64,000 nt of DNA from Candidatus Hermodarchaeota archaeon (lineage in GTDB: Archaea > Asgardarchaeota > Lokiarchaeia > Sigyniarchaeales > SOKP01), in assembly GCA_048885925.1 (NCBI GenBank), contig JBHLLG010000004.1, positions 19,503 through 83,502 on the forward strand, read 5' to 3'. Position numbers and translations under genes: made by a program. Every line of letters begins with the position of its first letter. The stretch's first letter is position 1. The notes beneath the pieces were generated by a model that ran no database searches, was not told the DNA's origin, and saw only the letters and a list, made by a program, of their open reading frames with translations. Shown in pieces: positions 6,293-32,984 of the stretch.

Positions 6293-8653
6293 ATGACAAG
6301 AATCGTAATTATAGGAGGTGTTGCTGGAGGAGCCTCAACAGCAGCACGATTAAGAAGATTAAGAGAAGATTTTGAGATTATAATGCTGGATAAAGGACAA
6401 TATGTTTCGTTTGCTAACTGCGGACTTCCATATTATGTAGGTAATGTCATAAAAGAAAGAGAATCACTTGAATTAGTTACTCCTCGTAGATTCAAAAGCT
6501 GGTTTAATATTGATGTAAGAGTTAATAATGAGGTAGTTTCAATTGATACTAAAAATAAAAAAGTCCTTGTAAGAGATTTATCTAAAATTGAAGATTATAA
6601 TCTTGACTATGATTTTCTTGTATTAGCCACGGGATCTAATCCTATTGTACCTAATTTTCCTGGTCTTGAGAATGTTCCTTACCATACAATCTGGACTATT
6701 CCTGATGCACTTAAAATAAGAAGTTTTGTTGATAATTATCAAATAAAAAAAGCGGTGATTGTTGGCGGAGGATTTATAGGCCTTGAAATGGCAGAAAATT
6801 TGGTTAAAAAAGGTGTCAAAGTTAAAATTGTGGAAATGTTAGATCAAGTAATGCCTCCTTTAGATAAGGAAATGGCGCAATTTATACATCAAGAATTAAT
6901 TTTAAACGGAGTTTGTCTGATACTTGAAGATCCAGTAGAATCTTTTGATAAAACTAGAGAAGGGAAACCAATTGTAAAAACTAAAAGTAAGCGTGAAATT
7001 GAAACAGATTTAGTGGTTTTATCTATTGGGATAAGACCTGTGAACAGTTTAGCTAAGGAATCTGGTTTAGAATTAAGCCCTAAAGGATATATAAAAGTAA
7101 ATGAATTTATGCAAACATCAGATCCCAATATATATGCTGTTGGAGATGTAATTCAAATTAATCATTTTCAAACAAAAAAGCCTATTGCAATTGCTTTAGC
7201 GGGACCTGCAAATAAGCAAGGAAGAATTGCTGCAGACAATATAACTGGGAGAAAAATTAAATATAAAGGCATCATAGGGGTATCAGTTGTAAAAGTATTT
7301 GATGCTACCGTTGCTACTGCGGGATTAACAGAGAAACAATTAAAAGAAACAGATTTTAAGTATGAAAAAATATATGTTCATCCAAATAATCATGCTGGCT
7401 ACTACCCGGGAGCAACACCAATCACTTTAAAGTTGTTATTTGAAGTGCCAAGTGGTATCGTTCTAGGTGTACAAGCTGTAGGGGGTCCTGGAACAGAGAA
7501 AAGAATTGATGTGATAGCTACAGTTATAAAATTTGGGGGAACCGTCTTTGATTTAGAAGAATTAGAATTAGCCTATGCCCCACCTTTTAATTCAGCTAAA
7601 GATCCGGTAAATATGGCAGGATTTGTTGCTTCTAATTTTTTAAGGGGCGATATGCCTATATGGCAGTGGCAGGATATTGAAATGCTAAAACAAAAAGATA
7701 ATATCCTCTTAGATGTCAGAACAAAAAAAGAATATGAAGCTAGAAATATCCATGGTTCAATAAATATACCCATTCACGAATTACGTCAAAAAATTCACGA
7801 ATTATCAAAAGATAAACCAATTTTTACATATTGTGAAGTGGGCTATAGGAGTTATTTAGCATCACGCGTTTTAATGCAAACTGGTTTTGAGAATGTTCAT
7901 AGCCTTACGGGAGGATATAAAATTTTCGAGATGGCCAATGCTAAAACAGAAGATATCGTAGCTGCATGTGGTAGTTCAGAATCTATTGTAGAAGAATATG
8001 TAAAACAAAAATCTACTGAAAATGATGAATTTGTTACAGTTGATTGCAGTGGATTAGCTTGTCCAGGACCATTGAATGCAATGATCAAATCACTTGAAAC
8101 TTTGCCTGAAAATAAAAAATTAAAAGTTTACGCTACTGACCCAGGATTTAAATCTAGTGTTGAAGCATACTCAAAACTAAACGAAGCTGTCAAATTGTTA
8201 TATATAGGAAAAGAAGAAGGAAAGTTAATCGCAACTATCGAAAAAGTTCAGCCTCCTATAGAAGTTATATCTCCTTTAAAACCTAAAACACGAAGAGAAT
8301 TACGAGCTCCCGGTGCTTTTCCAATTTCAGATATTAGTGCGGAAGAACTATATGAACGTCTTGAAACGGAGGATGAACCACCACTCCTAATTGATGTTCG
8401 AACACCTCAAGAATATTCACAAGGGCATATAAAGAATACCAAACTACTTCCTTTGGGTGAATTATTAAATAATACTGATGTCATAGCTAATTACATAGAC
8501 AAAGAGATCATTGCTATTTGCCATTCCGGTTCACGTTCTATGATGGCCGCTCAAATTTTAGCACAATCAGGTTTTAAAGATATCAGAAACTTAACGGGTG
8601 GAATGACACTTTGGAACAAGAGAGGCCTACCAATAAAAATGGGTAAAAATTAA
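6293..8653 (+). CDS. CoA-disulfide/persulfide reductase fused to rhodanese, TusA-like and second rhodanese domains
   Basis: FAD motif IVIIGGVAGGAS, redox Cys SFANCGLPYY, NAD motif VIVGGGFIGLE. Then rhodanese YCEVGYRS, TusA-like CPGP (GLACPGPL) and rhodanese ICHSGSRS. Confidence 0.9.
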   Translation: MTRIVIIGGVAGGASTAARLRRLREDFEIIMLDKGQYVSFANCGLPYYVGNVIKERESLELVTPRRFKSWFNIDVRVNNEVVSIDTKNKKVLVRDLSKIEDYNLDYDFLVLATGSNPIVPNFPGLENVPYHTIWTIPDALKIRSFVDNYQIKKAVIVGGGFIGLEMAENLVKKGVKVKIVEMLDQVMPPLDKEMAQFIHQELILNGVCLILEDPVESFDKTREGKPIVKTKSKREIETDLVVLSIGIRPVNSLAKESGLELSPKGYIKVNEFMQTSDPNIYAVGDVIQINHFQTKKPIAIALAGPANKQGRIAADNITGRKIKYKGIIGVSVVKVFDATVATAGLTEKQLKETDFKYEKIYVHPNNHAGYYPGATPITLKLLFEVPSGIVLGVQAVGGPGTEKRIDVIATVIKFGGTVFDLEELELAYAPPFNSAKDPVNMAGFVASNFLRGDMPIWQWQDIEMLKQKDNILLDVRTKKEYEARNIHGSINIPIHELRQKIHELSKDKPIFTYCEVGYRSYLASRVLMQTGFENVHSLTGGYKIFEMANAKTEDIVAACGSSESIVEEYVKQKSTENDEFVTVDCSGLACPGPLNAMIKSLETLPENKKLKVYATDPGFKSSVEAYSKLNEAVKLLYIGKEEGKLIATIEKVQPPIEVISPLKPKTRRELRAPGAFPISDISAEELYERLETEDEPPLLIDVRTPQEYSQGHIKNTKLLPLGELLNNTDVIANYIDKEIIAICHSGSRSMMAAQILAQSGFKDIRNLTGGMTLWNKRGLPIKMGKN

Positions 8654-8818
8654 TTTTTTTTTTTATTTAATTAATTTTTCATTTTGACATATTCTATTTA
8701 TCTTAATTGCTTCTTTAAATTATAAGTATAAAAGTTATAAGAAAGGCGAAATGTTATAAATCCAAATATATTCATATATAACGAATTTCCAATTTATAAA
8801 ATGGAGGTTAAAAAAAAT

Positions 8819-9409: not shown

Positions 9410-9500
9410 AAAACCAATTAAATTTTTAATTTAAAACCAATAGGATTAAATATTAAATTAAAGGATTTAAAAACAAAAAAAATTTTGAAGTGAAAGTATC

Positions 9501-9893: not shown

Positions 9894-9999
9894 AAATAAA
9901 TTTTTTTTATTTTTTTTTTATTATATCAATTAAATGTAATTAAACCTGTATACGTATTAAATTAATAAAAAATGCATCAGAATTTATCAGATTAATCAA

Positions 10000-11355: not shown

Positions 11356-11389
11356 ATTTGCTTTAATTTTGAAATAGAGGTATTAAAAG

Positions 11390-11938: not shown

Positions 11939-12027
11939 GTCTTAACTCTTATAAGAGATTATTATAAAAGTACAGGATGATACTATTATATCATAATTAG
12001 ATGTAAGAATATAATGTCATTCTAGTA

Positions 12028-12516: not shown

Positions 12517-12548
12517 AAATAAAAAATTAATATTTTTAAGATTTTCTT

Positions 12549-13727
12549 TTAATTTCTCTTTTTCCCAAGAAAAGGCATAGCATGCTCATACTGTTTCATA
12601 ACAAATCGTGAGATAACAATTCTTTGAATCTCACTTGTTCCTTCATAAATTTGATAGAGTTTTGCATCTCTAAATAATTTCTCGACAGGATATGTCCTTA
12701 AGTAACCATAACCCCCAAATATTTGAACTGCTTCCGTTGTTACGTTCATAGCGACATCCGAAGCGAAAGCTTTAGCTATTGAGGAACTCAAATTATTATC
12801 CATACCTTGATCAGCTTCCCATGCTGCTTTATAAGTCAATAACCGAGCAGCTTCAATATCTTTATACATGTTAGCTATTTTTTCTTGAATAACTTGATAA
12901 TTTCCAATTGGTCTTCCAAAAGCTTCTCTCTTTTGAGCATAATCGAGAGAATATTCCATCGCGGAACGAGCACAACCACATGCAAACGCACCTATTGCAG
13001 GGCGAGTATGAGCAAATGTTTGCATAGCCAAAACAAATCCTCTTCCTGGTTTAGCTAGAATATTTTCTTTTGGGATCCTTACATCTTTTAAACCAACTGA
13101 TACCGTGTTTGACGATCTTTGACCTAATTTAGGGATATGTTTACCTAATCTTACTCCTTCGCTTTTCGTATCTACAATAAAAGCTGCGATCCCTTTATGT
13201 TTTTTTTCAGGATCTACAGTCGCAAACACGGTAATATAATCAGCAAATCCTCCGTTAGTAATCCAAAACTTATTTCCATTTAATATAAATTCATCTCCAT
13301 CTTTTTCTGCTAGACATTTCATTCCAGCAACATCAGAACCCATCGTTGGTTCAGATGTAGCAAAAGCAATCAATTTAAACTCATTAACTAATTCACTTAA
13401 AATCCTTTTTTTTTGCTCTTCATTCCCTCCTATAACAATAGGTTCAGCACCTAGGTTATTATCAAAGATTGAAGTTGCAATTCCAGGACATGCCGAAGAT
13501 ATTTCCTCAACAACAAGACAGGAGCTTAATAAACCAAGGCCAGGACCACCATACTCTTTGGGTATTCCTAAATTTAATAATTTTTCCTCCCAAGCTTTTT
13601 TAATAACTGGTAATGGAAATTCTTCAGATTCATCATATTTTTGCGCTACTGGTAAAACTTCGCGAATTGCAAACTCTCTTGCTTTTTTTTGTAATGCTTT
13701 TTGCTCCTCATTTAGCATGAAATCCAT
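12549..13727 (-). CDS. Acyl-CoA dehydrogenase (short/medium-chain type)
   Basis: Full-length ACAD pattern: FATSEPTMGSDVAG, KFWITNGG, QIFGGYGY, YEGTSEIQR. Confidence 0.9.
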   Translation of the reverse strand: MDFMLNEEQKALQKKAREFAIREVLPVAQKYDESEEFPLPVIKKAWEEKLLNLGIPKEYGGPGLGLLSSCLVVEEISSACPGIATSIFDNNLGAEPIVIGGNEEQKKRILSELVNEFKLIAFATSEPTMGSDVAGMKCLAEKDGDEFILNGNKFWITNGGFADYITVFATVDPEKKHKGIAAFIVDTKSEGVRLGKHIPKLGQRSSNTVSVGLKDVRIPKENILAKPGRGFVLAMQTFAHTRPAIGAFACGCARSAMEYSLDYAQKREAFGRPIGNYQVIQEKIANMYKDIEAARLLTYKAAWEADQGMDNNLSSSIAKAFASDVAMNVTTEAVQIFGGYGYLRTYPVEKLFRDAKLYQIYEGTSEIQRIVISRFVMKQYEHAMPFLGKKRN

Positions 13728-13743
13728 TATTATTTCTCTCCTT

Positions 13744-14949
13744 TTACCCCATTTTCTTTATTAATTTATCCACAATATTCTTAAAGTCCAAATCTTCTGG
13801 TCTTGGAACAAATTTTATTTCGATTATTTCTTCCATCACATCAATTTTAGCAGCTTTCATTAATTCAACAATTTCTTTTACTGCTCCTCCACCCCAACCA
13901 TATGAACCAAAAGCCAACCCAACTTTATTCATTGGCTTTAAACCTTTTTGATAAGATAAGTATTCTGCAACAGTTGGATATAATCCGTTATTTAGGGTAG
14001 GACTTCCAACTAAGATAGCTTTAGCTTTCATAGCCTCCGTAATTACATCTGAATAGTCAGCATTAGTTAATCTATACCTTTTTACTGGAATTCCTCGAAG
14101 TTTAATTTCATTTGTTAATGCTTTAGCTATTTTTGCAGTACTTTCCCACATTGAATCGTATACAATGAGGACGCTTTTTACATCAATTTCTCCCTTACTC
14201 CATTTTGTATATCTCTCCAATATCTCTGGAATATGACTTCTCCAACAAATCCCGTGAGATGTACAAATAACTTCAATTGGTAAGGATCCAACTTTAGGTA
14301 AAGCTTTTGCTATTAACCCAGAAAGATGTTGTAATATATTGGCATAATATTTCTCTGCTTCTTGAAACACTTCACTAAGATCATTTTCATCATCCCAACG
14401 TTTTGATGTTGCATAATGTTGTCCAAATGCATCATTTGAAAACAATACATTTTTACCATGCTCATCACTCATAAAAGAGACCATAGAGTCAGGCCAGTGT
14501 ATCATAGGAATAGGTACAAATGTAAATTTCTTACCATTTCCAATGTCTAAAGTATCTCCTTCCTCAACAGCTCTAATTCTTTTAAATAATTCATCATCTA
14601 CTTCGTCATGATAATGAGCTTTTAATATATCAACCCCTCGCTTCGAAGCAATTAGCTCGGCATTAGGAAGATACTTAATAATTAATGGAAATGACCCAGA
14701 ATGATCCATCTCAACGTGATTTGTTATAAAATAATCAATCTCAGAAGGATCACATATTTCTTTAATATTATGTAAAAAATATTCAAAGTAAGGACGCTTA
14801 ATAGTATCAATCAATACTGTTTTTTTTCCTTTTACAATATATGCATTATAAGAACTAGCTCGATGTGTAGAATATCCATGGAAATTTCTCACTTCCCAAT
14901 CTACATAACCAACATAATAGATATCTTTCATCATTTCTAAATGTTCCAT
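13744..14949 (-). CDS. fprA: Flavodiiron protein (FprA / rubredoxin:oxygen oxidoreductase type)
   Basis: Metallo-beta-lactamase-like diiron motif HVEMDHSGS plus a C-terminal flavodoxin domain (ILVGSPTLNNG). Confidence 0.9.
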   Translation of the reverse strand: MEHLEMMKDIYYVGYVDWEVRNFHGYSTHRASSYNAYIVKGKKTVLIDTIKRPYFEYFLHNIKEICDPSEIDYFITNHVEMDHSGSFPLIIKYLPNAELIASKRGVDILKAHYHDEVDDELFKRIRAVEEGDTLDIGNGKKFTFVPIPMIHWPDSMVSFMSDEHGKNVLFSNDAFGQHYATSKRWDDENDLSEVFQEAEKYYANILQHLSGLIAKALPKVGSLPIEVICTSHGICWRSHIPEILERYTKWSKGEIDVKSVLIVYDSMWESTAKIAKALTNEIKLRGIPVKRYRLTNADYSDVITEAMKAKAILVGSPTLNNGLYPTVAEYLSYQKGLKPMNKVGLAFGSYGWGGGAVKEIVELMKAAKIDVMEEIIEIKFVPRPEDLDFKNIVDKLIKKMG

Positions 14950-15097
14950 TTCAATTTCACCTTTTTATAATAGGATTTGATAATTATTTCGTAATAGTAA
15001 TTCAAATCAAATTAAAAACTTATATTCTATTTATTATAAAATTTTTTTAGAAATTTTGCAATGAAAAAAAAATTAAAAAGAAGTAAGATTTTATAGA

Positions 15098-15235
15098 TTA
15101 TTCGATTTTCTCAAACAGATCCTTTCCCACACCACAAACAGGACAAGTCCAGTCATCTGGTAAATCTTCAAACTTGGTTCCCTCAGCTTCTTCATCATAC
15201 ACATATCCGCAAGCTTGACATTCCCATTTTCCCAT
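15098..15235 (-). CDS. rub: Rubredoxin (45 aa, below ORF-track size cut-off)
   Basis: Hand translation gives [45 protein letters not shown]. Canonical CxxCG...CPxCG with the DLPDDW motif. Confidence 0.85.
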
Positions 15236-15494
15236 CAATATCACTTTCACTTAATTTTAAGTTGTACTATATAATTTTATGGATTGTAATTGAATGTATA
15301 TAAAAAATATTAATTTAATATTTTATAAATATAAAACTATTCTTTTAGTGTTTCTAATTTAGGTTTTTTATTGATATTCGGGGTATAATCTATTGTTCTT
15401 CCTTAGAAAATCACAAAATTTTATGATTAAATTAATTAAATTAGATAAGAATTAGATTTATCTATTTTTATAAATAATGTTTTTTTTCATTTTA

Positions 15495-15644
15495 CTATTT
15501 TGGTAATTCTTTTTTAAGGAAGAAATTTTTTGATGATCTGCATTTTGGGCAACTATAATCATCGCTTACCTGTTCAAATGGAACTTCCCTTTCTTCATCA
15601 ATATAAAGGTAATTACATCTTCTACAACGGTATATAGGAATCAA
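15495..15644 (-). CDS. Rubredoxin-like small zinc-ribbon protein (49 aa)
   Basis: Hand translation gives (TTG)IPIYRCRRCNYLYIDEEREVPFEQVSDDYSCPKCRSSKNFFLKKELPK. Rubredoxin spacing of CxxC...CxxC. It lies 12 nt downstream of the NROR stop. Only a TTG start is available. Confidence 0.5.
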   Translation of the reverse strand: MIPIYRCRRCNYLYIDEEREVPFEQVSDDYSCPKCRSSKNFFLKKELPK

Positions 15645-15655
15645 TAATCATCTCT

Positions 15656-16999
15656 TTATTCTTTTCTTTTATACCTACTTTTAGAAGCACCACATTCACA
15701 TTTAAAATCGTCTGGGAGATCCTTAAAAAGAACGTCCATTTTAATTTCATCGTATTCTTTGCCACAATTTTCACATTTATAAACATATAATTCTAATAAT
15801 TTTCTCAATTCATCTCTATCTACATCTTGTTCCATCTTTTTATTAACATATGAATTAGCTTTAGTTTCTCCAAATAAAATTGCTCCTTTAAGTTTATTAT
15901 CTTTTAAAATTATTTTTTGGTAGCAACAGTCTTTTTTATCTGCTTTTTTTAATATTTCCCATCCTCCACCATGTTCTTTTGAAGGATCGATTACCCCAAT
16001 TGAAGTTAAATCAAGACCTACAATTTTCAAAGTGTTCTTAGGAGTGGTTCCTTCATACTTTACTTTTTTTGCTCCAAGTACAGATGCTGCTACTATTTTT
16101 GATTGCTCCATACATGCTGGAATAATACCCCATATCTGATTTTTATATTCTATGCAATCTCCAACAGCGAATATATCTTTTATATTAGTCTCTAAGAATT
16201 CATTTACAATAATACCTCTGTTTGTTTCAATATTTGCATCTTTAGCGATATCTATTGTTGGGGTAATTCCGGCTTGTATTAAAACAAGATCTGCTTCTAA
16301 TTTCTTTCCACCTTTTAACTTTATTCCAGAAACTTTCCCATCTCCGAGGATTTCCTCTGTTACCGCATCTAAAACCACCATTATTCCTCTATTTTCAATT
16401 TCTTCTTTTAACATAGTACCACATTCAGCATCTAATTGCCTGGGAAGCAATTGAGGAAAAAATTCAACTACAGTTGTATCTAACTTACAAAATTTTATTT
16501 GGTTTGCCAATTCTAAACCAAGTAATCCGCCTCCAATTATAATAGCCTTCTTAACTTCATTTTTTTTAATATGATTTTTTATTTCAAGCGCATCATCAAT
16601 ATTTCGTAGTGTAAATACTCCTTTTTTGTTAATATTCATTTCAATTGCATTTTTAATTGGAGGTATATTTGGAGTACTACCTAAAGCTAAAATTAACTTA
16701 TCATATCCAATAGAATTATTTTCTCCATTGAGATATATTTCTTTAACCTTAGGATCAATGCTATTAACTTTTTTATTTAAATATAAATTCAATTCTTTAT
16801 TTTTATACCAATCTTCTTTGAAAACAATTAAATCTTCAATCTTTACATTATCGGAGATTAATTCGGGTAATTTAACTCGAGTATAATATGGATAGCTCTC
16901 TTGAGTATAAATTTCAATTTCAACATGATTATTAAGATAACGGATATTTTGAGCGGTAAAGGTACCCGCTACATTATTCCCTATTATAATAACTTTCAT
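15656..16999 (-). CDS. NAD(P)H:rubredoxin oxidoreductase-like FAD protein with C-terminal rubredoxin-like domain
   Basis: KVIIIGNNVAGT (FAD), AIIIGGGLLGLELA (NAD), AVGDC. The C-terminus has YKCENCGKEY...LPDDFKCECG. Confidence 0.85.
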   Translation of the reverse strand: MKVIIIGNNVAGTFTAQNIRYLNNHVEIEIYTQESYPYYTRVKLPELISDNVKIEDLIVFKEDWYKNKELNLYLNKKVNSIDPKVKEIYLNGENNSIGYDKLILALGSTPNIPPIKNAIEMNINKKGVFTLRNIDDALEIKNHIKKNEVKKAIIIGGGLLGLELANQIKFCKLDTTVVEFFPQLLPRQLDAECGTMLKEEIENRGIMVVLDAVTEEILGDGKVSGIKLKGGKKLEADLVLIQAGITPTIDIAKDANIETNRGIIVNEFLETNIKDIFAVGDCIEYKNQIWGIIPACMEQSKIVAASVLGAKKVKYEGTTPKNTLKIVGLDLTSIGVIDPSKEHGGGWEILKKADKKDCCYQKIILKDNKLKGAILFGETKANSYVNKKMEQDVDRDELRKLLELYVYKCENCGKEYDEIKMDVLFKDLPDDFKCECGASKSRYKRKE

Positions 17000-17156
17000 A
17001 GAATAATTAGTTTATACATCTTATTTTAAAGTTTTCTTTATATATTGTAATCTCAAATTATATTCTTTATGAACAAGTTCTAAATCAAATTTAAATCAAA
17101 ATGAATTATAATTTAAATTAATTAATTTTAAAAAAACTGTAAAAAAGTGGTAATTT

Positions 17157-19093
17157 ATGAAAAACGATAGAATTTCTTATCATAAGTCTGTTCAAAAAGC
17201 TTATGAAAGACTTAAAAAAGATGGCATGAATAACATTTGGGATCGCTTTGAAGCACAAGGATTTGGAGGTGTCCCTGATAAGCGATGTCCATTTTGCTTA
17301 AAAGGAGCTCGCTGTGATTTATGCTCTAATGGTCCATGTAGAGCAGATTCCTCAATTGATAAACATGGTGTATGTGGTATTACTGCAGATGGGATGGCTA
17401 TGCGGATGATGCTCCTTAGAAATGTTATGGGTGCATCTACTTACCATTATCATACTGAAACGACTTTGAAGACCTTAAAGGCAACGGTAGAAGGTCAAAC
17501 TCCATTTAAAATTGCTGAACCTGATAAATTGAAAAGTTTTACCGAACGATTAGGGTTGGATACATCTGGTTCAGAGAAAGAAATTGCATTAAGCCTATAT
17601 AACTTTGTAAAGGAAGATTTCAATAGATCCTATGATGAACCAAGTAAAATTGTAGAGAAATTAGCACCACTTGAAAGACAAGAAGTATGGAAAAAATTAG
17701 GAATTTTTCCAGGTGGACTATATGGCGAAATGATGTTCTCAACAAGCTCTTGCCTTACAAATGTAGATGGATATTATGCAAGTTTAGCTCTCAAAGCAAT
17801 GAGACTTGGGATTGCGATGGCTTACCAAAGCCAAATTGTCAATGAATTCACTCAGGATATTTTATTTAATATTCCCAGACCTCATATTATGAGAGTGAAT
17901 CTTGGGGTATTAGACCCAGATTATGTAAATGTACTCCCTAATGGCCATGAACCATTCTTAGGGTTTGCAATGGTTCAACTTGCACGTAAATCTGAATGGC
18001 AAGAAAAAGCAAAAGCCGTTGGTGCAAGAGGTCTAAGAATAATCGCAAATATTGAAACTGGGCAGGAAATGATACAAAGATGGGAAATGGATGATGTATT
18101 TTATGGATTTACGGGAAATTGGATCATGCAAGAAGCAATTTTGGCAAGTGGTTGTATTGATGCTTTTGTTTGTGATATGAATTGCTGTATGCCAATTGAT
18201 CCTATATATGCAAAAAAATATAAATTCAAATTAGTCCCAGTCTCTGAAGTTGTAGCCTTTGAGGGCATAACTGAAAGAGTAGATTATAAACCCGATAAAG
18301 GTGAAGAACAAGCTGCAATGTTACTACAAATGGCAATAGATAATTTTAAGGAGCGCAGAGCAAACATAGAACCTATTACTGGTTTAGATATGAATGAAGC
18401 AGTAGTTGGTTTTTCAAGTGAAAGTATTGTTGCAGCTCTCGGAGGTACACTTGGACCATTACTCGATCTAATAAAGAATGGAACTATACGAGGAGTTGCT
18501 GGATTAATATCATGCACAACGCTTAGGGATTATGGACAAGATGTACATACAATTGACGTGGCTAAAGAATTAATTAAACGAGACATTTTGGTATTATCAA
18601 TGGGGTGCGGTAATGGTGCATTACAAGTTGGAGGATTATGTTTACCAGAAGCTAAAGACTTGGCAGGTCCCGGTCTTAAAGCAGTTTGTGAAAAACTTGG
18701 AATTCCTCCAGTTCTTAGCTATGGAACATGTACAGATACAGGGAGAGTTGCTGATTTATTAGGCTCAATTTCCGCTGCACTTGGCGGAGTCCCAATTCCA
18801 GATTTACCCGTTGTAGCTGCAGCTCCAGAATATATTACTAATATTTTCTAGATTAGTAAGTTCCAATGGAGCAAAAAGCGTCGATAGATGCTCTCTTCGC
18901 ACTGGCTTTCGGATTATATACCTACGTAAATCCTGTTCTCACAATCACGGGCGGTGCAGATTTAATGAAGTTATTAACTGAAGACTTGAAGCATCTCACA
19001 GGTGGAGTATTACATATGGAACTTGACACAAAAGAAGCGATAGAGAATATGTTAAAGCATATTGAAGCAAATAGGAAGAAGTTAGGTATTTAA
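17157..19093 (+). CDS. cooS: CooS-family (Ni-CODH / CooS-V-like) protein, interrupted; proposed join(17157..18833,18866..19093)
   Basis: N-terminal Cys cluster CPFCLKGARCDLCSNGPCRA...GVCGITA. C-cluster-region motifs NGHEP, CDMNCCMP, GLISCTT, SMGCGNG, YGTCTDTGR. The C-terminal 75 aa (MEQKASIDA...TGGVLHMELD) lie in another frame, 32 nt downstream of APEY. Confidence 0.85.
18834..18865 (+). other. Putative BHB (bulge-helix-bulge) intron, 32 nt, within the cooS-like gene
   Basis: Outer helix 18822-27/18867-72 (6 bp); bulge CAA 18864-66; 4-bp helix 18828-31/18860-63; bulge AUA 18832-34; inner 8-bp helix 18835-42/18852-59; 9-nt loop carrying the TAG. Excision restores the frame. 18835..18866 gives the identical product. 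Confidence 0.6.
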
Positions 19094-19583
19094 AATCAAA
19101 TTTCTAAATAATTAATTTTTTTTTTTCATTTTCTTTTTTCTTTAATTTTGGTTTTTGCGGTAATTATTTACAAAATCATCAACTTATTGCTGCGAATCAC
19201 CATAGAATTTATAGATGACTTTATCTTTAGAATATTCTTTTTCAACTCGAAGACTTAACTCTCTAGCTTCGAACTCAAGCATTTCTTTACTCTATTCGGT
19301 AATATAAGTGGAAAAATTCCTTCCTTTTGAAATAACACATAAATAGTGAGGGTGTATAAGAAGTTCATCTCCATCAATATTTCGATAGCGGCATCACTAC
19401 CCTTCAGACGGTGATGGAGATGGAGAAGTTGCCATCAATGGATATAATGTAATGCTAATGTTCAGTATTATAACTGGGATTAGTTTCCTTTTAATTAAGA
19501 AATTAAAGCACAAATAAATTTCTAAAATTTTTTTTCCTATTTTCTTAAGAAGATGTTATTTATACTAAATTTTTAAACTTCCC

Positions 19584-21065
19584 CTAATTATATTTAAATT
19601 TCTTGCTTTCTTGATATCCTGTTCCAATTATTTTACCAATTTTATAATAACGATTATCTAATGCGTAGATAATTGGATCTAATTTTGTCATATCTGCAAT
19701 TGTCTGGTCTTCTTCGCTTTTAATCACAAAATCTTTACTAACATAAGATTGTACAACATCTCCAATAAAAATCTGTCTATGCTGAATTGAGAATTCCTTG
19801 ATAACTTTGCATTCTAAATTCACAGGGCATTCCCGAATCATGGGTGCTGTATTTAGGTCACCATAGAAAATTTTAAATAGTTGTGACTTATCCACCTCTT
19901 TTCCAGATACTACACCGCAATAATCAGTTTTTACCAGAAGCTGAGTTGTTGGAAAATTAATACTAAAGGTTCTTTGTTCGAGAATTCCTTGATTTGTATA
20001 ATGATCTTGACCTGATGAAATGTAAACAAGAGGAGGTTTAATACCCATTATTCCGACGTCTCCCAATGTCTCAAAATTAGGTTGATTATTAACAAGTGCT
20101 CCAGCAAGAATGATCGGGACAGGATAAACTAAAGGAACTTTTCCAAATTTAACTTTTTCAGCAGAGGATAATGTTTTTATGATGAAATTATCCATTTGAT
20201 TTATTAGCCAACTTTTCAAAGGATCTTGAATGGGAACCTTTTTAAGATCTTCTGGATCCTCATAACGAGCTGTAATCAATTTATTAACATTTTTAGCTCG
20301 ATAAACAAATGGGCAATTGTAATATAGATTTAATGGATAATTGTAATCAAAAGGGAGTTCATAAAGTTCAATTCTTTCCATGGTCGAGAGAATCACACCT
20401 GATAAGATTGCTTGATGGATGAAAATAGCATAAATGTAGTTCTTATTGTAATAATCGTTAAAACATTGTTCATTATATAATTCTCTATAAGAATTCCACC
20501 ATGATTGAAGTAGTCCTTTCTCTGGTCTAACAATCAAACAACCCGCATTAAAATAAGGTCGAATCTTGTTATGGTCAACATGTGTTTTCATTGGAAAAAT
20601 CTGTTCTTTAGAGATATTACATTTTTGATACACTTGTTCCCAAAATGGATCCATTGGTTCATCATAGAATGACCCAATATTGACGTGATGAACTGGTCGA
20701 TAACCTAAATTCTTATCATCATCTAAAATGAAGTGTTTTGGCTCATTAAAAATAATTGTATTTGAACCAAGCCATGCAAGAAGTCTTGCTTTTTTTTTTG
20801 CTAATGATTCAGCCTTTGCAGCAGCAAAAACATAGTTAATAAAGGGAAATTTTGGCTCATCCTCAGTTGCAAAAGGAATAAGATCAACATTCAGTGATAA
20901 AAATAAATTTTTTAGCTCTTTATTGATATTCTCTTCCAATTCTGGGATTAACACCCAAATTGGATAATCTGATAAAGATTCTCCAAATTTACGAATACTT
21001 GCTGCAAGGATTAGATCTTTTGGGTCTGAACAATCAGAGATATAAGCAAAAATTAATTTTTCCAT
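19584..21065 (-). CDS. Two-domain protein: unknown N-terminal domain (~300 aa) fused to flavin reductase-like (flavoredoxin/HpaC-type) FMN-binding domain
   Basis: The C-terminal ~190 aa follows the flavin-reductase split-barrel pattern (PVPIILAGA...NFETLGDVGIMG...FSINFPT...CPVNLECKV). The N-terminal part has no motif I recognise. Confidence 0.6.
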   Translation of the reverse strand: MEKLIFAYISDCSDPKDLILAASIRKFGESLSDYPIWVLIPELEENINKELKNLFLSLNVDLIPFATEDEPKFPFINYVFAAAKAESLAKKKARLLAWLGSNTIIFNEPKHFILDDDKNLGYRPVHHVNIGSFYDEPMDPFWEQVYQKCNISKEQIFPMKTHVDHNKIRPYFNAGCLIVRPEKGLLQSWWNSYRELYNEQCFNDYYNKNYIYAIFIHQAILSGVILSTMERIELYELPFDYNYPLNLYYNCPFVYRAKNVNKLITARYEDPEDLKKVPIQDPLKSWLINQMDNFIIKTLSSAEKVKFGKVPLVYPVPIILAGALVNNQPNFETLGDVGIMGIKPPLVYISSGQDHYTNQGILEQRTFSINFPTTQLLVKTDYCGVVSGKEVDKSQLFKIFYGDLNTAPMIRECPVNLECKVIKEFSIQHRQIFIGDVVQSYVSKDFVIKSEEDQTIADMTKLDPIIYALDNRYYKIGKIIGTGYQESKKFKYN

Positions 21066-21444
21066 TTAAAAACCAAGCTCATATTATTTCATTTTAAAAT
21101 GAATATTAAAACACTAATTAGTAATTAAATTATTCTGATGAATTAAATTCATTAATGAATATCATAAAAAAAGAAAATAATGAACTTATTCTTCTAGTTA
21201 AATCTTTTTAATCTTATCAATTAAAGCTGGAATGGGTTCTTGTAGATCTCCAAATATCCCATAATAAGCCCAATTAAAGATAGATATTTTTAGATTATTT
21301 ATCCGAGATATAGATTACCAATTATAGAAGATTTGAATCTCTTGAAATTCATTTTTTATATAATATGTATTTTAAATTCATTTCAATTTCTATTTGAACA
21401 TGTTCGAAATTAAAAATATATAATGACTGCCTTTTCATTTAATC

Positions 21445-22230
21445 ATGACTGAAGCAAAACAATATAAAATAGTAAAAAGAAAAATAATTAAGATCGATGA
21501 AGATCTGTGTACAGGATGCGGAAATTGTGTAGTTGATTGTGCAGAAGGAGCTTTAAAAGTAATTGATGGAAAAGCTAGGGTTATAAATGAAATATTCTGC
21601 GATGGTCTTGGTGCATGCATTTCTGGGTGTCCTGAGGGTGCACTTGAAATAATCGAAAGAGAGGCTTTAGAGTTTGATGAGGAAGCTGTGGAAAAACATT
21701 TAGAATCCATGAAAGATAACAAATCTGCTGAAACTGAACAAATAAAGCAAATTGTTTCTGAACATGCCCACCAATGTGGTTGTCCTTCTGCTCAAACAAT
21801 GGTTTTTGACGAACCTGAGGTACAATCTGAAGTTGCAGGAAAGATACCTTCAGCTCTACGACAGTGGCCTGTTCAAATGCACTTAATCAATCCACGAGCT
21901 CCATATTATCAAGGTGCAGATGTTCTTCTTTCAGCTGACTGTGTAGGATTTTCATATGGAGATTTTCATAGAGACTTCTTGAAGCATAAATCCATTGCTA
22001 TTGCATGTCCTAAGCTTGATCAAGGAAAAGAAGTCTACATTGAAAAAATTAAATCTTTAATAGATGATGCTAAAATTAACACACTTACAGTTACCATTAT
22101 GGAAGTGCCCTGCTGTGGAGGACTATTAGCCTTAGCTCAAGAAGGCGCTAAGAGAGCAACCCGAAAAGTTCCTATAAAATATATGGTTGTAGGGATTCAA
22201 GGAAATATAATAAAAGAAGAATGGATCTAA
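21445..22230 (+). CDS. 4Fe-4S dicluster domain protein with conserved Cys-containing C-terminal domain
   Basis: CTGCGNCVVDCAEGAL and CDGLGACISGCPEGAL ferredoxin motifs. C-terminal part has ADCVGF, ACPKLDQ, VPCCGG. Confidence 0.75.
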   Translation: MTEAKQYKIVKRKIIKIDEDLCTGCGNCVVDCAEGALKVIDGKARVINEIFCDGLGACISGCPEGALEIIEREALEFDEEAVEKHLESMKDNKSAETEQIKQIVSEHAHQCGCPSAQTMVFDEPEVQSEVAGKIPSALRQWPVQMHLINPRAPYYQGADVLLSADCVGFSYGDFHRDFLKHKSIAIACPKLDQGKEVYIEKIKSLIDDAKINTLTVTIMEVPCCGGLLALAQEGAKRATRKVPIKYMVVGIQGNIIKEEWI

Positions 22231-22247
22231 TTTTTTTTTAATAATTT

Positions 22248-22901
22248 TTATTTTTTAAGCAAAACTTTTTTCTTAATGATTTTTCTTAACATTACTGATA
22301 AAGCTGCCTTAGATTTCCCTATTTGGTTAGCTAATTCTTCTAATGAAATCTTTCGAGGAACTTCGAAAAATCCTGAAGTGATGGCTTTATCGAGAATACT
22401 CAATTCATCATAAGTCAATTTGTTTTTATCATTTTCAAGGATGTATGGGGAAACACCAATCCTTAATAATTCAAAATCAATTCTTTTTTGTTCAAAAAGA
22501 GTTAATAGCTGATCTATCCGTTCTCTACTTGCTATCAACCTCCAATAAGCAAATCCCTCTTCAACTCTTACGGGAAAGTCTACAAGAACACCACACTTTA
22601 TTATGGCATACAACAAATAAGGATCCTTTGTTTTAACATTGAATTTAACTCGACTTTCTTCCTTTTCTATGATATTCAGTTCAAAAACTGAGGGATGATT
22701 TCTAACTTGTTCAAGAATAGAATCAATATTATAATGCAGAATTTCAATTACACTGTTACCAATAGATTTTTCAAGATCATAAGGAAGAAAATGTGAAATC
22801 TCCATCTTGATATCAGGAAAATTTTTGAAAATTTCAGAAATCCATATTTGTTCTGGAAACTTAATCTTTATTCTTGCTAAGCTTGGTTTTTCCGTAGCCA
22901 T
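22248..22901 (-). CDS. Bat-like HTH-10 family transcriptional regulator
   Basis: C-terminal LTYDELSILDKAITSGFFEVPRKISLEELANQIGKSKAALSVMLRK matches the archaeal HTH_10 (bacterio-opsin activator type) pattern. Confidence 0.7.
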   Translation of the reverse strand: MATEKPSLARIKIKFPEQIWISEIFKNFPDIKMEISHFLPYDLEKSIGNSVIEILHYNIDSILEQVRNHPSVFELNIIEKEESRVKFNVKTKDPYLLYAIIKCGVLVDFPVRVEEGFAYWRLIASRERIDQLLTLFEQKRIDFELLRIGVSPYILENDKNKLTYDELSILDKAITSGFFEVPRKISLEELANQIGKSKAALSVMLRKIIKKKVLLKK

Positions 22902-22987
22902 CTTGAAATATTAATGTTTAAGATTTTAAAACTTTATTTTTATACATAATGATTAATTATTAATAAAAACAATTTAAATGCATTATT

Positions 22988-23587
22988 ATGGTAGAAAAGA
23001 AGAATTTATTACTTGGAATATCTGGTAGCCCAAGAAAACAGGGGACTGAATATGCTATCCAATATGCTTTAAATTATGCTGCTGAAAAGTTTGGATTTGA
23101 AACGGAATTTTGGACTGTCAGAAATAAGGATATTAAGTTTTGTCTACATTGTGATTATTGCATTCGAGAAAAAAAGGGGTGTGTAAATAAAGATGATATG
23201 GAGGAACTCTATACTAAATTAGAACAAGCTAATTTTTTTCTGTTTGGAACTCCTGTTTTCCAAGGAAACTTATCAGGACAAATTAAAACCGTTTTAGATC
23301 GATGTCGTGCAATGGTCGCTAAAACTCCCAACGTATTCAAGAATAAAATTGGAGCAGCACTAGCTGTTGGGGGAGATCGAAGTGGAGGACAAGAAATTGC
23401 AATTAGAGGTATTTTAGATTTTTTTCAACAAAATCATATAATAAGTGCTTCTGGTGGTGCTTTTGGGGCTAATTTAGGTGCTAGTCTGTGGAGTAGAGAT
23501 ATGGGAAAAGAAGGGATTGAAAAAGATGAAGAAGGTTTACGCACCATCCGAAAGGTAATAAAAAGATTAGTAGAATTTAAAAAATAA
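22988..23587 (+). CDS. Iron-sulfur flavoprotein (Isf) / NADPH-dependent FMN reductase family
   Basis: GISGSPRKQGT flavodoxin-like start and the compact Cys motif CLHCDYCIREKKGC typical of Isf. Confidence 0.8.
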   Translation: MVEKKNLLLGISGSPRKQGTEYAIQYALNYAAEKFGFETEFWTVRNKDIKFCLHCDYCIREKKGCVNKDDMEELYTKLEQANFFLFGTPVFQGNLSGQIKTVLDRCRAMVAKTPNVFKNKIGAALAVGGDRSGGQEIAIRGILDFFQQNHIISASGGAFGANLGASLWSRDMGKEGIEKDEEGLRTIRKVIKRLVEFKK

Positions 23588-31576: not shown

Positions 31577-32281
31577 ATGGGTGATTTTATGTTATTTTCT
31601 GAAAATGAGATAGGTAATATTAAAAGAGAAATGGGTAAATTAAAGGATAAAGTTATTTTAAAATTGTTTACTGATTTCAAAATCCAAGAGGATGGAAAAA
31701 AAGTAAGAAAATGTATGGCTTGTGAAGGAGCATATGAGTTATTGAAAACTTTAGAAGATCTATCTGATGGTAAATTAAAAATAGAGGAAATATCCACGGA
31801 AGAAAATGAGGAAGAAGCAAAAAAGTATAATGTAACCAGAATTCCTGCTATATTATTTGTTGATGAAAATGATAAAGAAATAATTCGATACTCCGCTTAT
31901 CCGACTGGATCAGAATTTGTTCCTTTTCTTAACAGCATTCAATACTTCTCAGGTGTTAGACCTTATTATGCAGATCAAATCATTACACATCTAAAAAAGA
32001 TAGATAATTCGAAAATGAAGATTTTTATTACTCCAACTTGCCCGTATTGTCCCGCAACAGTACCAGTTCTTACATTATTTGCGATAATTAGTAAAGGAAA
32101 GGTTTCAGCCGAAGTAATTGATGTTGACTTAAATCCTGATATTGCTATGAAATATCAAGTTCAAGGAGTTCCGCACACAGTTATAAATGAGAAGGATCAT
32201 ATTTATGGAATGTTTACCCCTCAAGATCTTTTAGATAAACTTACAAAAGGTCAGAGAGATTTTGGAGGGATGTATGCTTAG
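31577..32281 (+). CDS. Protein disulfide oxidoreductase (PDO, two thioredoxin folds), paralog 1
   Basis: N-unit CMAC and C-unit CPYC (TPTCPYCP). About 230 aa, as in Pyrococcus/Sulfolobus PDO. Confidence 0.8.
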   Translation: MGDFMLFSENEIGNIKREMGKLKDKVILKLFTDFKIQEDGKKVRKCMACEGAYELLKTLEDLSDGKLKIEEISTEENEEEAKKYNVTRIPAILFVDENDKEIIRYSAYPTGSEFVPFLNSIQYFSGVRPYYADQIITHLKKIDNSKMKIFITPTCPYCPATVPVLTLFAIISKGKVSAEVIDVDLNPDIAMKYQVQGVPHTVINEKDHIYGMFTPQDLLDKLTKGQRDFGGMYA

Positions 32282-32300: not shown

Positions 32301-32984
32301 ATGCTTTCAGATGAGAAATATAAAGAAATAATTAGAAGAGAGATTGCTAAACTAAAAAAGCCTGTAAGATTAAAAGCTTTCACCTGTAAAAGAAGACCCC
32401 CCAATGGAAGTCCAATTAGAGAATGCATGGATTGTGGTCAAATTATGTCCTTGTTAAAGATCTATGAGGAAAATTCAAATGGGATGCTTAAAATCGAAGA
32501 AATGTGTATAGATGACAATCCTGAGTTTTCCAAAATGTATGACATTCAAAGAGTTCCAACAATTCTCTTCATTGATGAGAATGGGAAAGAAATAATCCGT
32601 TATTTGGCAGCACCTCAAGGGGGAGAGATTCAACCTTTTGTTCAAGCCATTTTTGCTTTTGCTGGAGGGAACAATTATTATGAAGCAACAATTAAGCAAA
32701 ATTTAGATCGAATCCAACCAAGTACCATTAAGATTATGCTCACAATGTCTTGTCCTTATTGTCCACAAGTTGCATCTATAGCTAATTTATTTGCGATTGC
32801 CTCAAGAGGAAAGATAAGATCTGTCATTGTAGATATAATGGCTAACCCGGATATTGGTCAATATTATGACGCGGCAGGTGTTCCATATATAATTATTAAT
32901 GATCAAAAAACTTTAGTTGGAATGGTTGGACCAAATGAAATATTAAGAGCTCTGATTGGAGGTAATATACGTGTTCAATATTGA
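32301..32984 (+). CDS. Protein disulfide oxidoreductase (PDO), paralog 2
   Basis: N-unit CMDC and C-unit CPYC (MSCPYCP). Colinear with paralog 1. Confidence 0.8.
   Translation: MLSDEKYKEIIRREIAKLKKPVRLKAFTCKRRPPNGSPIRECMDCGQIMSLLKIYEENSNGMLKIEEMCIDDNPEFSKMYDIQRVPTILFIDENGKEIIRYLAAPQGGEIQPFVQAIFAFAGGNNYYEATIKQNLDRIQPSTIKIMLTMSCPYCPQVASIANLFAIASRGKIRSVIVDIMANPDIGQYYDAAGVPYIIINDQKTLVGMVGPNEILRALIGGNIRVQY

What the first reader, a model, noticed from the sequence alone, without database searches (positions are those of the whole stretch)
18822..18872. 32-nt insert splitting the cooS-like gene folds into a canonical BHB splicing motif: candidate endonuclease-spliced mRNA intron
ORFs 17157..18851 and 18866..19093 are the first 564 aa and last 75 aa of one CooS-family protein, but they lie in different frames. 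Deleting exactly 32 nt (18834..18865, or equivalently 18835..18866) joins ...AAAPEY to MEQKASIDA.... That join is gap-free colinear with the ...SAAEAMHEKAVAIG... segment of characterised CooS proteins, as I recall for C. hydrogenoformans CODH-II. The RNA around the insert pairs as follows. The outer exon-exon helix is GCUCCA (18822-27) with UGGAGC (18867-72). Next is a 3-nt bulge CAA (18864-66). The central 4-bp helix is GAAU (18828-31) with GUUC (18860-63), including one G-U pair. Next is a 3-nt bulge AUA (18832-34). The inner 8-bp helix is UUACUAAU (18835-42) with AUUAGUAA (18852-59). The 9-nt loop contains the in-frame TAG. Two 3-nt bulges on opposite strands separated by 4 bp is the recognition motif of the archaeal tRNA-splicing endonuclease. 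The bulges are exactly 32 nt apart, so symmetric cleavage gives the frame-restoring junction GAATAT|ATGGAG. BHB introns in protein-coding genes are, to my knowledge, described essentially only for cbf5 in Crenarchaeota. A small frame-shifting intron with an internal stop would also allow an unspliced (truncated) versus spliced (full-length) switch. This is conceptually like HAC1/XBP1 unconventional splicing, and it is notable in a lineage with eukaryote-like signature genes.
Basis: partly seen in the sequence, partly recalled or inferred. Interest (0 to 1): 0.92.

Follow-up and report, generated by a model that had tools for sequence, protein, structure and literature searches.

The report
Endonuclease-type mini-intron splitting Asgard cooS gene
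A 32-base insert that breaks an otherwise intact CO-dehydrogenase-family gene of an Asgard (Promethearchaeota) archaeon has the exact RNA shape cut by the archaeal tRNA-splicing enzyme, and relatives keep that shape through compensating mutations, so it is very probably a spliced mRNA intron, a class known so far essentially from one gene (cbf5) in another archaeal phylum.

Summary
Window 18834-18865 is a 32-nt insert between codons Tyr (TAT) and Met (ATG) of a CooS/CODH-V-like gene. Removing it gives a 634-aa protein that aligns without a gap across the join to solved CODHs (7b7q, E 4e-200).

The flanks form a canonical hBHBh' motif: 6-bp exon-exon helix, 4-bp exon-intron helix, two 3-nt bulges, 8-bp inner helix and a 9-nt loop.

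The insert is not an artefact or a decaying pseudogene.
- An independent Logan assembly carries it.
- Nine further distinct alleles in other Promethearchaeota assemblies have a 32-nt insert at the same site.
- 97.8% of base-pair cells are kept, against 21-46% in slid controls, and four pairs show double compensatory changes. One of these couples a synonymous exon change to an intron change.
- Exon 2 is under strong purifying selection.
- Exon flanks are frozen only where the insert is present.

Most orthologues, including a 95%-identical one, lack the insert, and carriers are scattered in the gene tree.

Best explanation (about 0.85): a BHB pre-mRNA intron cut by EndA and ligated by RtcB. It is the first found here in an Asgard protein-coding gene. 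No transcript evidence was obtainable, and the regulatory-switch idea is untested.

The parts
17157..18833 (+). Exon 1 of the CooS/CODH-V-like gene (559 codons, ends ...GCT CCA GAA TAT = APEY)
   Evidence: ORF list. The spliced translation aligns to residues 4-629 of 7b7q, with the join gap-free.
18834..18865 (+). 32-nt BHB intron (phase 0). If unspliced it adds ITNIF then TAG to exon 1.
   Evidence: Nine further distinct alleles in other assemblies have the same length and site. It is single copy in the window.
18866..19093 (+). Exon 2 (75 codons plus stop, begins ATG GAG CAA = MEQ)
   Evidence: It is under purifying selection among intron-bearing lineages: pN 0.05-0.18 against pS 0.64-0.83.
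18822..18827 (+). Outer helix h, 5' strand (GCUCCA, exon 1). Pairs with 18867-18872.
   Evidence: 98% of cells are paired across 10 alleles. The exact exon flank is present in 5 of 6 intron lineages against 2 of 39 intronless Asgard alleles.
18867..18872 (+). Outer helix h, 3' strand (UGGAGC, exon 2)
18828..18831 (+). Central 4-bp helix H, 5' strand (GAAU, exon 1). Pairs with 18860-18863.
   Evidence: 95% of cells are paired. In L090 the exon change GAA->GAG pairs with the intron change U->C.
18860..18863 (+). Central helix H, 3' strand (GUUC, intron)
18832..18834 (+). 5' three-nucleotide bulge AUA. Predicted cut is after 18833 (AU|A).
   Evidence: The bulge is invariant in 10 alleles. The cut position after the second bulge nucleotide follows from the tRNA BHB geometry described in PMC4090602.
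18864..18866 (+). 3' three-nucleotide bulge CAA. Predicted cut is after 18865 (CA|A).
   Evidence: It is CAA or UAA in all alleles.
18835..18842 (+). Inner helix h', 5' strand (UUACUAAU). Pairs with 18852-18859.
   Evidence: 98.8% of cells are paired, and 3 of 8 pairs have double compensatory changes.
18852..18859 (+). Inner helix h', 3' strand (AUUAGUAA)
18843..18851 (+). 9-nt loop of the intron. Its sequence varies between alleles. It contains the in-frame TAG at 18849-51.

Best explanation
The 32 nt at 18834-18865 is an archaeal bulge-helix-bulge (BHB) intron inside the coding region of a CooS/CODH-V-like gene of a Promethearchaeota (Asgard, Lokiarchaeia-like) archaeon.

**Inferred mechanism**
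1. In the primary transcript, exon 1 (GCUCCA) pairs with exon 2 (UGGAGC).
2. The last exon-1 bases (GAAU) pair with the 3' end of the intron (GUUC).
3. The intron body forms an 8-bp hairpin.
4. This presents two 3-nt bulges, 4 bp apart, to the tRNA-splicing endonuclease EndA. In Asgard archaea EndA is the broad-specificity (alpha-beta)2 type.
5. EndA cuts after the second nucleotide of each bulge (AU|A and CA|A).
6. The RtcB-type ligase joins GAAUAU to AUGGAG and probably circularises the 32-mer.
7. The mRNA then encodes the full 634-aa enzyme.
8. Unspliced RNA would give a 564-aa protein that lacks the last 75 residues.

**Shown here**
- The sequence, the fold and the exact frame restoration.
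- Conservation of length and site, and covariation.
- Selection on exon 2 and on the exon flanks.
- Patchy distribution confined to Promethearchaeota.

**Inferred, not shown**
- Cleavage, ligation and circularisation in vivo.
- Presence of EndA and RtcB in this particular genome.

**Evolution (inferred)**
The intron was probably gained once within the Promethearchaeota cooS clade and then lost repeatedly, or exchanged by recombination between alleles. All copies share the site, the length and recognisable sequence, but carriers are interspersed with intronless sisters.
For: 1. **Exact geometry and frame restoration.**
2. **Ten distinct alleles.** All are 32 nt and sit at the same codon boundary: window, L074, L081, L082, L083, L090, L091, L093, L097 (the same in 4 assemblies, L097-L100) and L101.
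3. **Covariation under the BHB structure.**
   - 97.8% of 180 pair cells are standard pairs, against 21-46% when partners are slid by 1-3 columns.
   - 0 of 500 shuffles reach the observed pairing or covariation score.
   - Double compensatory changes occur at columns 23/41 (C-G to U-A), 25/39 and 26/38 (A-U to G-C, in the L082 group and again in L101 on a window-like background), and 15/46.
   - At 15/46, L090 has exon GAA->GAG opposite intron C, while its relative L082 has an A.C mismatch there and L091 has A-U.
4. **Independent fold prediction.** RNAalifold and single-sequence MFE recover helices h and h' in all alleles.
5. **Not a pseudogene.** Spliced ORFs are intact at 634 aa in all lineages. 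Among intron-bearing lineages exon 2 has pN 0.05-0.18 against pS 0.64-0.83.
6. **Exon synonymous sites that build h and H are frozen only with the intron.** The exact flank GCTCCAGAATAT|ATGGAGC occurs in 5 of 6 intron lineages against 2 of 39 intronless Asgard alleles (p about 1e-4).
7. **The intron is conserved but not as coding sequence.**
   - Intron identity is 72-88% among five lineages, at or above the flanking exons (65-84%).
   - The read-through peptides differ: IAN*, ITN*, ISN*, ITGI*, ITNIF*, IVGGFGTNKL*.
8. **The 32 nt is read-supported.** An independent assembly of raw reads reproduces it (L092).
9. **Negative controls.** 75-aa exon-2-like ORFs in GC-rich contigs (L094-L096) arise from unrelated frameshifts, with no insert at the junction.
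10. **Lineage fit (literature).** Asgard EndA is (alpha-beta)2 with the L1 loop, the type associated with pre-mRNA and non-canonical introns (PMC5829648). cbf5 mRNA introns are 16-44 nt (PMC2738675).
Against: - **No transcript, circular-intron or peptide evidence** could be obtained. The exact spliced proteins are absent from the 15-billion-protein collection. This is uninformative rather than negative.
- **EndA and RtcB genes were not seen in the window,** and the rest of the genome is not available.
- **Independent compensatory events are few.** Roughly three to five branches carry them.
- **Some alleles carry one mismatch:** A.C in helix H of L082 and L083, G.A in h of L093, U.C in h' of L097. 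These would be relaxed BHBs.
- **BHB-like motifs with short helices are frequent by chance** in this AT-rich DNA (348 loose hits in the window). The motif alone would not be convincing.
- **Exon 2 begins with ATG,** so separate translation cannot be formally excluded.
Confidence: 0.85

Rival explanations
1. Split gene without splicing. The insert supplies a stop codon, and exon 2 is translated separately from its own ATG. A 564-aa and a 75-aa polypeptide then assemble non-covalently. The conserved hairpin would serve translational coupling or mRNA stability.
For: - Exon 2 starts exactly with ATG and is under purifying selection.
- Gene callers annotate two ORFs in every carrier.
Against: - It does not explain the constant 32-nt length, the invariant pair of 3-nt bulges 4 bp apart, or the compensatory change linking an exon codon to the intron.
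- It does not explain the freezing of exon synonymous sites that pair with each other across the insert.
- U and G of the ATG lie inside helix h (18867-72).
- No Shine-Dalgarno-like motif precedes the ATG in any allele. This is weak evidence, because only 9 of 46 genes in the window have one.
- The ATG is simply the conserved Met of all CooS orthologues.
Confidence: 0.06
2. Inactivating insertion, with a pseudogene or a neutral indel hitch-hiking. The BHB-like fold is a coincidence of an AT-rich palindromic insert.
For: - NCBI records give no protein accession for the truncated ORFs, consistent with pipelines treating them as disrupted.
- Most orthologues lack the insert.
- Loose BHB motifs are common by chance.
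Against: - No second lesion occurs in any of the six or more diverged carrier lineages, although synonymous sites are saturated.
- Exon 2, downstream of the frameshift, has dN/dS of about 0.03-0.16.
- There is covariation.
- The insert is as conserved as the coding sequence.
- Truly decayed copies (L094-L096) look different.
- The chance of a BHB in register with a predetermined indel is about 2e-5 or less.
Confidence: 0.03
3. EndA-type cleavage without productive ligation. The BHB is a processing or decay site that down-regulates, or separates, the mRNA rather than an intron.
For: The same structural evidence as for the intron. A BHB in the 5'UTR of Haloferax HVO_1309 shows that EndA acts on mRNAs outside coding joins (PMC7714728).
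Against: - The excision product is exactly in frame and colinear with all homologues.
- Exon 2 remains under protein-level selection in the CooS frame.
- From general knowledge, archaeal RtcB ligates BHB-cleaved ends generically.
Confidence: 0.03
4. Translational recoding across the insert, by programmed frameshift or ribosomal bypass.
For: An in-frame stop lies soon after the junction, with a hairpin. This is superficially like T4 gene 60.
Against: - Stops block every single-shift path. Frame 0 stops at 18849-51. The exon-2 frame has TAA at 18839-41 and TAG at 18854-56 (read).
- No matching take-off and landing codons would keep ...PEY-MEQ... The CCA...CCA pair in the window would delete E-Y and is absent in the L082 group.
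- Homologues have no extra residues at the site.
Confidence: 0.01
5. Assembly or sequencing artefact.
For: None beyond the a-priori possibility.
Against: - The window region is identical in an independent Logan assembly.
- Homologous inserts occur in NCBI, ENA, JGI and Logan assemblies from different projects.
Confidence: 0.005

Closest known systems
BHB introns in cbf5 (pseudouridine synthase) pre-mRNA of Crenarchaeota (Watanabe 2002; Yoshinari 2006; Yokobori 2009, PMC2738675)
   Same: - A short intron (cbf5: 16-44 nt; here 32 nt) inside a coding region.
- hBHBh' structure built from exon-exon and exon-intron pairing.
- No encoded protein.
- Presence or absence is patchy among related lineages (gain and loss).
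- The hosts have hetero-oligomeric (alpha-beta)2 EndA.
- The gene is mis-annotated as two ORFs or a frameshift.
   Different: - A different gene: a metabolic Prismane/CODH-family enzyme, not an RNA-modification enzyme.
- A different phylum: Promethearchaeota/Asgard, mesophilic and 29% GC.
- No sequence relationship is expected between the two introns.
- Splicing was demonstrated experimentally for cbf5 but not here.
Archaeal tRNA and rRNA BHB introns (EndA/RtcB pathway)
   Same: - The same recognition motif: two 3-nt bulges separated by 4 bp.
- The same predicted cut after the second bulge nucleotide.
- The same expected ligation and intron circularisation.
   Different: - The substrate is an mRNA, and the exon helix is made of codons. 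It therefore competes with synonymous drift, which is visible as frozen codons.
- There is no tRNA body.
BHB intron in the 5'UTR of Haloferax volcanii HVO_1309 mRNA (Schwarz 2020, PMC7714728)
   Same: EndA acting on an mRNA.
   Different: That element lies in the untranslated leader and does not interrupt the reading frame. Here excision is needed to make the protein.
HAC1/XBP1 unconventional cytoplasmic mRNA splicing (IRE1 plus tRNA ligase/RtcB)
   Same: - Spliceosome-independent removal of a small intron (26 nt in XBP1) that changes the reading frame.
- Ligation by a tRNA-type ligase.
   Different: - The nuclease is IRE1, which recognises two 7-nt loops, not EndA recognising 3-nt bulges.
- Regulation by stress is established there and entirely hypothetical here.
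- This is an analogy only.

Membership tests
Archaeal BHB (EndA-dependent) intron | Two 3-nt bulges on opposite strands separated by a 4-bp helix | tested here: met
   AUA (18832-34) and CAA (18864-66) flank GAAU/GUUC. The geometry is kept in all 10 alleles, and H cells are 95% paired.
Archaeal BHB (EndA-dependent) intron | Flanking helices h (exon side) and h' (intron side) that stabilise the motif | tested here: met
   6-bp h and 8-bp h' are present in the MFE of every allele and in the RNAalifold consensus.
Archaeal BHB (EndA-dependent) intron | Cleavage after the second nucleotide of each bulge yields a functional mature RNA | tested here: met
   The join GAAUAU|AUGGAG gives a 634-aa ORF colinear with 7b7q and 6t7j without a gap. 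The cut position is deduced from PMC4090602.
Archaeal BHB (EndA-dependent) intron | Structure maintained in evolution (covariation) | tested here: met
   4 pairs have double-sided changes. 97.8% of cells are paired against 21-46% in slid controls, and 0 of 500 shuffles reach the observed score. The number of independent events is small.
Archaeal BHB (EndA-dependent) intron | Host encodes splicing endonuclease EndA and RNA ligase RtcB | not testable with these tools
   Neither gene was seen among the ORFs examined in the window (partial annotation only), and the rest of the genome is unavailable. The literature reports (alpha-beta)2 EndA with the L1 loop in Asgard archaea (PMC5829648).
Archaeal BHB (EndA-dependent) intron | Excision and exon ligation observed in RNA (spliced junction, circular intron) | not testable with these tools
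   No transcript data could be reached. An exact look-up of six spliced proteins found none.
cbf5-type archaeal pre-mRNA intron (as a homologous family) | Located in the cbf5 gene of Crenarchaeota at the catalytic-residue codon | tested here: not met
   The host gene is in the Prismane/CooS family and the lineage is Promethearchaeota. It is the same mechanism class but not the same intron family.
HAC1/XBP1-type unconventional splicing | Splice sites in twin 7-nt loops recognised by IRE1 | tested here: not met
   The splice sites lie in 3-nt bulges of a BHB, and the only loop is the 9-nt intron loop. IRE1 is not an archaeal enzyme (general knowledge).
Pseudogene | Relaxed selection: further frameshifts or stops, and dN/dS approaching 1 downstream of the lesion | tested here: not met
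   No other lesion occurs in any carrier. Exon 2 has dN/dS of about 0.03-0.16 with saturated dS. Decayed copies L094-L096 differ.
Miniature repeat or mobile element (MITE-like palindromic insert) | Multiple copies in the genome | tested here: not met
   There is a single match in the 64-kb window at up to 3 mismatches, and the arm pattern is not enriched. Only the window was searched, not the genome.

The most novel reading that the evidence does not exclude
The intron is a regulated switch. Under some conditions the cooS-like mRNA is left unspliced, giving a truncated inactive protein. EndA/RtcB splicing turns the enzyme on post-transcriptionally. This would be an archaeal counterpart of HAC1/XBP1-type frame-switch splicing in the lineage related to the eukaryotic host. 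Such mRNA BHB introns could be one visible case of a wider, unannotated set in Asgard genomes. The patchy distribution could then reflect intron mobility (reverse splicing or allele recombination) rather than only loss.
Probability: 0.12. Interest if true: 0.88.

Novelty: new member of a known kind. Interest (0 to 1): 0.7.

Why it matters
Endonuclease-spliced introns inside archaeal protein-coding genes have rested for over twenty years on essentially one gene, cbf5, in Crenarchaeota. One further mRNA case lies in a Haloferax 5'UTR.

This would be a second coding-gene case. It is in a metabolic enzyme and in Asgard archaea, the prokaryotic lineage closest to eukaryotes.

- **Scope of the pathway.** It shows that the tRNA-splicing machinery can be used for mRNA maturation well beyond TACK archaea.
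- **A natural series for intron gain and loss.** Carriers and intronless sisters are up to 95% identical.
- **Annotation.** Pipelines silently discard such genes as pseudogenes or split them into two ORFs. Metabolic reconstructions of Asgard MAGs may therefore under-call functional genes.
- **An experimental substrate.** It gives a concrete, short, easily synthesised RNA for testing Asgard EndA and RtcB.

Tried and rejected
**Searches that led nowhere**
- **JGI metagenome pattern scan.** The pattern TGCTCCAT N{20,50} ATATTCTGGAGCNGC returned six unrelated chance matches.
- **Exact look-up of six spliced 634-aa proteins,** hoping for cDNA-derived contigs. None was found.
- **Shine-Dalgarno test for independent translation of exon 2.** It is uninformative, because few genes here have such motifs.
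- **tRNA and Rfam scans of the window.** Nothing was found, so there is no local tRNA intron to compare.
- **Literature searches.** No report of BHB introns in Asgard protein-coding genes. One Asgard paper reports only abundant tRNA introns (PMC11291895).

**Other BHB candidates examined and rejected**
- **32271-32310.** Fusing the ORFs merely joins two complete tandem paralogues across a 19-nt spacer.
- **12514-12552 (- strand).** It lies at the very end of an acyl-CoA dehydrogenase gene.
- **7474-7530.** It is in frame, but inside a Pyr_redox_dim domain that matches the profile without an insertion.
- **Scan of about 670 kb of fetched loci for further BHB-split genes.** Only the cooS intron survived. 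A recurrent hit downstream of cooS in several loci is a convergent intergenic region.

**Exon-2-like ORFs in long GC-rich contigs**
- The 75-aa ORFs P0238, P0212 and P0230 come from other frameshifts and have no insert at the junction. The count of about 45 clusters of exactly 75 aa therefore cannot be read as 45 intron alleles.

**Mechanisms rejected by direct reading**
- Frameshifting and ribosomal bypass were considered and rejected (see the rival explanations).
Full report
**1. The observation**

The sequence at 18700-19000 and the ORF list confirm two + strand ORFs. One is 17157..18851 (564 aa) and the other is 18866..19093 (75 aa). They lie in different frames.

Removing 18834-18865 (32 nt, ATTACTAATATTTTCTAGATTAGTAAGTTCCA) gives a single 634-aa ORF.
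- It is a Prismane/CO-dehydrogenase family protein (Pfam E 3e-135).
- It aligns over its whole length to solved CODHs. The best match is the CODH-V type 7b7q (E 4e-200).
- The join ...DLPVVAAAPEY|MEQKASIDALFALAFG... aligns without any gap to ...DLPVAVTAPMYMEQKATIDALFALAYG... of 7b7q, and likewise to 6t7j.

- Helix h: GCUCCA with UGGAGC.
- Helix H: GAAU with GUUC.
- Bulges: AUA and CAA.
- Helix h': UUACUAAU with AUUAGUAA.
- Loop: 9 nt, holding the in-frame TAG.

RNAfold puts h and h' in the minimum-free-energy structure (-19.4 kcal/mol, z = -3.4). The complete BHB lies 0.9 kcal/mol above it.

In tRNA BHBs, anticodon nucleotides 34 and 35 lie in the 4-bp helix and the splice site is 37/38 (PMC4090602). 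The cut is therefore after the second bulge nucleotide. Here that gives AU|A and CA|A, and so GAAUAU|AUGGAG. This is the frame-restoring join.

**2. Is it more than chance?**

Taken alone, the motif would be weak evidence. A scan of my own finds 348 loose BHB-like motifs (h and h' of at least 4 bp, H 4/4, intron length 12-150) in this 28.6% GC window.

The rate per fixed position and length is only about 2e-5. It is about 1e-7 at the stringency seen here, and a similar rate holds in 670 kb of other loci.

Here the position and length are dictated independently by the protein alignment. This is also the only motif in the window whose excision repairs a split gene. The other fusions were examined and rejected.

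**3. Lineage and relatives**

The closest proteins are annotated as Promethearchaeota (Asgard), with up to 95% identity. The genome scan confirms this placement.

Most orthologues are uninterrupted 634-aa genes. Several predicted proteins, however, stop just after APEY, with different tails: IAN, ITN, IVGGFGTNKL and others.

Fetching their DNA, plus loci found through a search with the exon-2 peptide, gave ten distinct alleles with an insert. These are the window, L074, L081, L082, L083, L090, L091, L093, L097 (identical in four assemblies) and L101.
- Every insert is exactly 32 nt.
- Every insert lies between the same TAT and ATG codons.

A Logan assembly of run SRR30758828 is 100% identical to window 18623-19554, including the insert. 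The insert is therefore not an assembly artefact.

**4. Structure conservation**

The ten alleles were aligned as A3 and scored against the BHB structure.
- 97.8% of 180 pair cells are standard pairs. The figure is 21-46% when the 3' partners are slid by 1-3 columns.
- No shuffle out of 500 reaches the observed pairing or covariation score.
- Four pairs show changes on both sides:
  - C-G to U-A at columns 23/41.
  - A-U to G-C at columns 25/39 and 26/38. This occurs in the L082 group and also in L101, which otherwise has a window-like intron.
  - Column 15/46 in helix H. L091 has A-U, L082 has A.C, and L090 has G-C through a synonymous exon change (GAA to GAG) opposite the intron C.

RNAalifold independently recovers h and h', and every allele's MFE contains them.

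Caveats:
- The independent events are few.
- Four alleles carry a single mismatch.

**5. Not a pseudogene**

All carriers have intact spliced ORFs of 634 aa. Between carrier lineages synonymous sites are saturated (pS 0.64-0.83). Non-synonymous divergence in exon 2, downstream of the frame break, is only 0.05-0.18.

The intron itself is 72-88% identical among five lineages. This is at least as conserved as the flanking exons, at 65-84%. The peptides it would encode differ, so the selection acts on the RNA.

The exon bases that form h and H are frozen in carriers. The exact flank GCTCCAGAATAT|ATGGAGC occurs in 5 of 6 carrier lineages, against 2 of 39 intronless Asgard alleles (Fisher p about 1e-4).

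Genuinely decayed or error-ridden copies in GC-rich contigs (L094-L096) also yield 75-aa ORFs. These come from unrelated frameshifts, with no insert at the junction.

**6. Distribution**

In a neighbour-joining tree of 80 CooS sequences, the carriers fall only within the Promethearchaeota clade. They occupy at least five separate positions, each next to intronless sisters.

Shared site, length and sequence argue for a single origin. Repeated precise loss, or exchange by recombination, would follow. This resembles the gain-and-loss pattern described for cbf5 (PMC2738675).

**7. Mechanism**

Best explanation, confidence about 0.85: a BHB pre-mRNA intron, cleaved by EndA and ligated by RtcB.

The literature supports plausibility.
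- Asgard archaea have the (alpha-beta)2 EndA with the L1 loop (PMC5829648). This is the type linked to pre-mRNA and non-canonical introns.
- cbf5 introns are 16-44 nt.

Cleavage, ligation and circularisation are inferred, not shown.

Rivals, all disfavoured, with reasons given in their own sections:
- A non-spliced split gene.
- A pseudogene.
- Cleavage without ligation.
- Translational recoding.
- An assembly artefact.

**8. Context**

The gene sits among redox genes:
- A CoA-disulfide-reductase-like protein with rhodanese domains.
- A flavodiiron-type protein.
- An NADH:rubredoxin-reductase-like gene, divergently upstream. This arrangement is also conserved in L097.
- A flavin reductase.
- A ferredoxin-like protein.
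- An FMN reductase.

**9. Comparison and novelty**

The mechanism class is known: tRNA, rRNA and cbf5 BHB introns. Within the searchable literature, coding-region BHB introns are reported only for cbf5 in Crenarchaeota. One 5'UTR case is reported in Haloferax (PMC7714728).

No paper reporting one in Asgard protein-coding genes was found.

I therefore rate it a new member of a known kind, of fairly high interest. The HAC1/XBP1-like switch remains an untested analogy.

Noticed in passing
window 32271-32310 (+), between ORFs 31577..32281 and 32301..32984: A weak BHB-like motif (h 5 bp, h' 4 bp, 40 nt) whose excision would fuse two adjacent ORFs of 234 and 227 aa. The two ORFs are complete tandem paralogues (both begin M..(S)E.E...I.RE..KLK), separated by 19 nt. 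The fusion is therefore coincidental.
   Followed up: yes
window 7474-7530 (+), inside ORF 6293..8653: An in-frame 57-nt BHB-like motif with 7-bp h and h', rich in G-U pairs. It lies in a 786-aa Pyr_redox_2 / Pyr_redox_dim / TusA / rhodanese protein. The region sits inside the dimerisation domain, which matches the Pfam profile without an insertion. It is not an intron.
   Followed up: yes
window 1-64000: ARAGORN finds no tRNA gene and Rfam finds no family at gathering threshold in the whole 64 kb. Given reports of heavily intron-disrupted tRNA genes in some Asgard genomes (PMC11291895), disrupted tRNAs could be missed by these tools.
   Followed up: no
window 6293-23587: The cooS-like gene is embedded in a cluster of flavin and redox genes. 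These are a CoA-disulfide-reductase-like protein with rhodanese domains, a flavodiiron-type ODP plus flavodoxin protein, an NADH:rubredoxin-reductase-like gene, a flavin reductase, a ferredoxin-like protein and an FMN reductase. The closest solved relative is the CODH-V type (7b7q) rather than a canonical Ni-CODH.
   Followed up: partly
intronless loci such as L006 4665-4684 and L032: 2 of 39 intronless Asgard alleles carry the exact exon flank GCTCCAGAATAT|ATGGAGC. On its own this would form a 6-bp hairpin with a 7-nt loop. It could be either a footprint of precise intron loss or a ready-made insertion site.
   Followed up: partly
L094 (JGI Ga0105922_10000003, 4.1-Mb contig), L095, L096: GC-rich genomes carry cooS-V-like genes broken by one or several frameshifts upstream of the APEY|MEQK site. 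The cause is either real pseudogenes or long-read indel errors. These produce 75-aa ORFs that mimic exon 2 in protein databases.
   Followed up: partly
L081 2092-2634 and 5310-7400: Next to the intron-bearing cooS of GCA_030620005 lie an Arf/Ras/Roc-type small GTPase gene and a 696-aa ORF with a LAGLIDADG_3 domain, possibly intein-containing.
   Followed up: no
L101 (ENA ERZ23499022 scaffold_49295): This allele's exon 1 is closest to L093, at 83% over the last 230 nt. Its intron and the start of its exon 2 resemble the window's. This hints at recombination between alleles around the intron. The scaffold also contains a short run of N inside cooS.
   Followed up: partly
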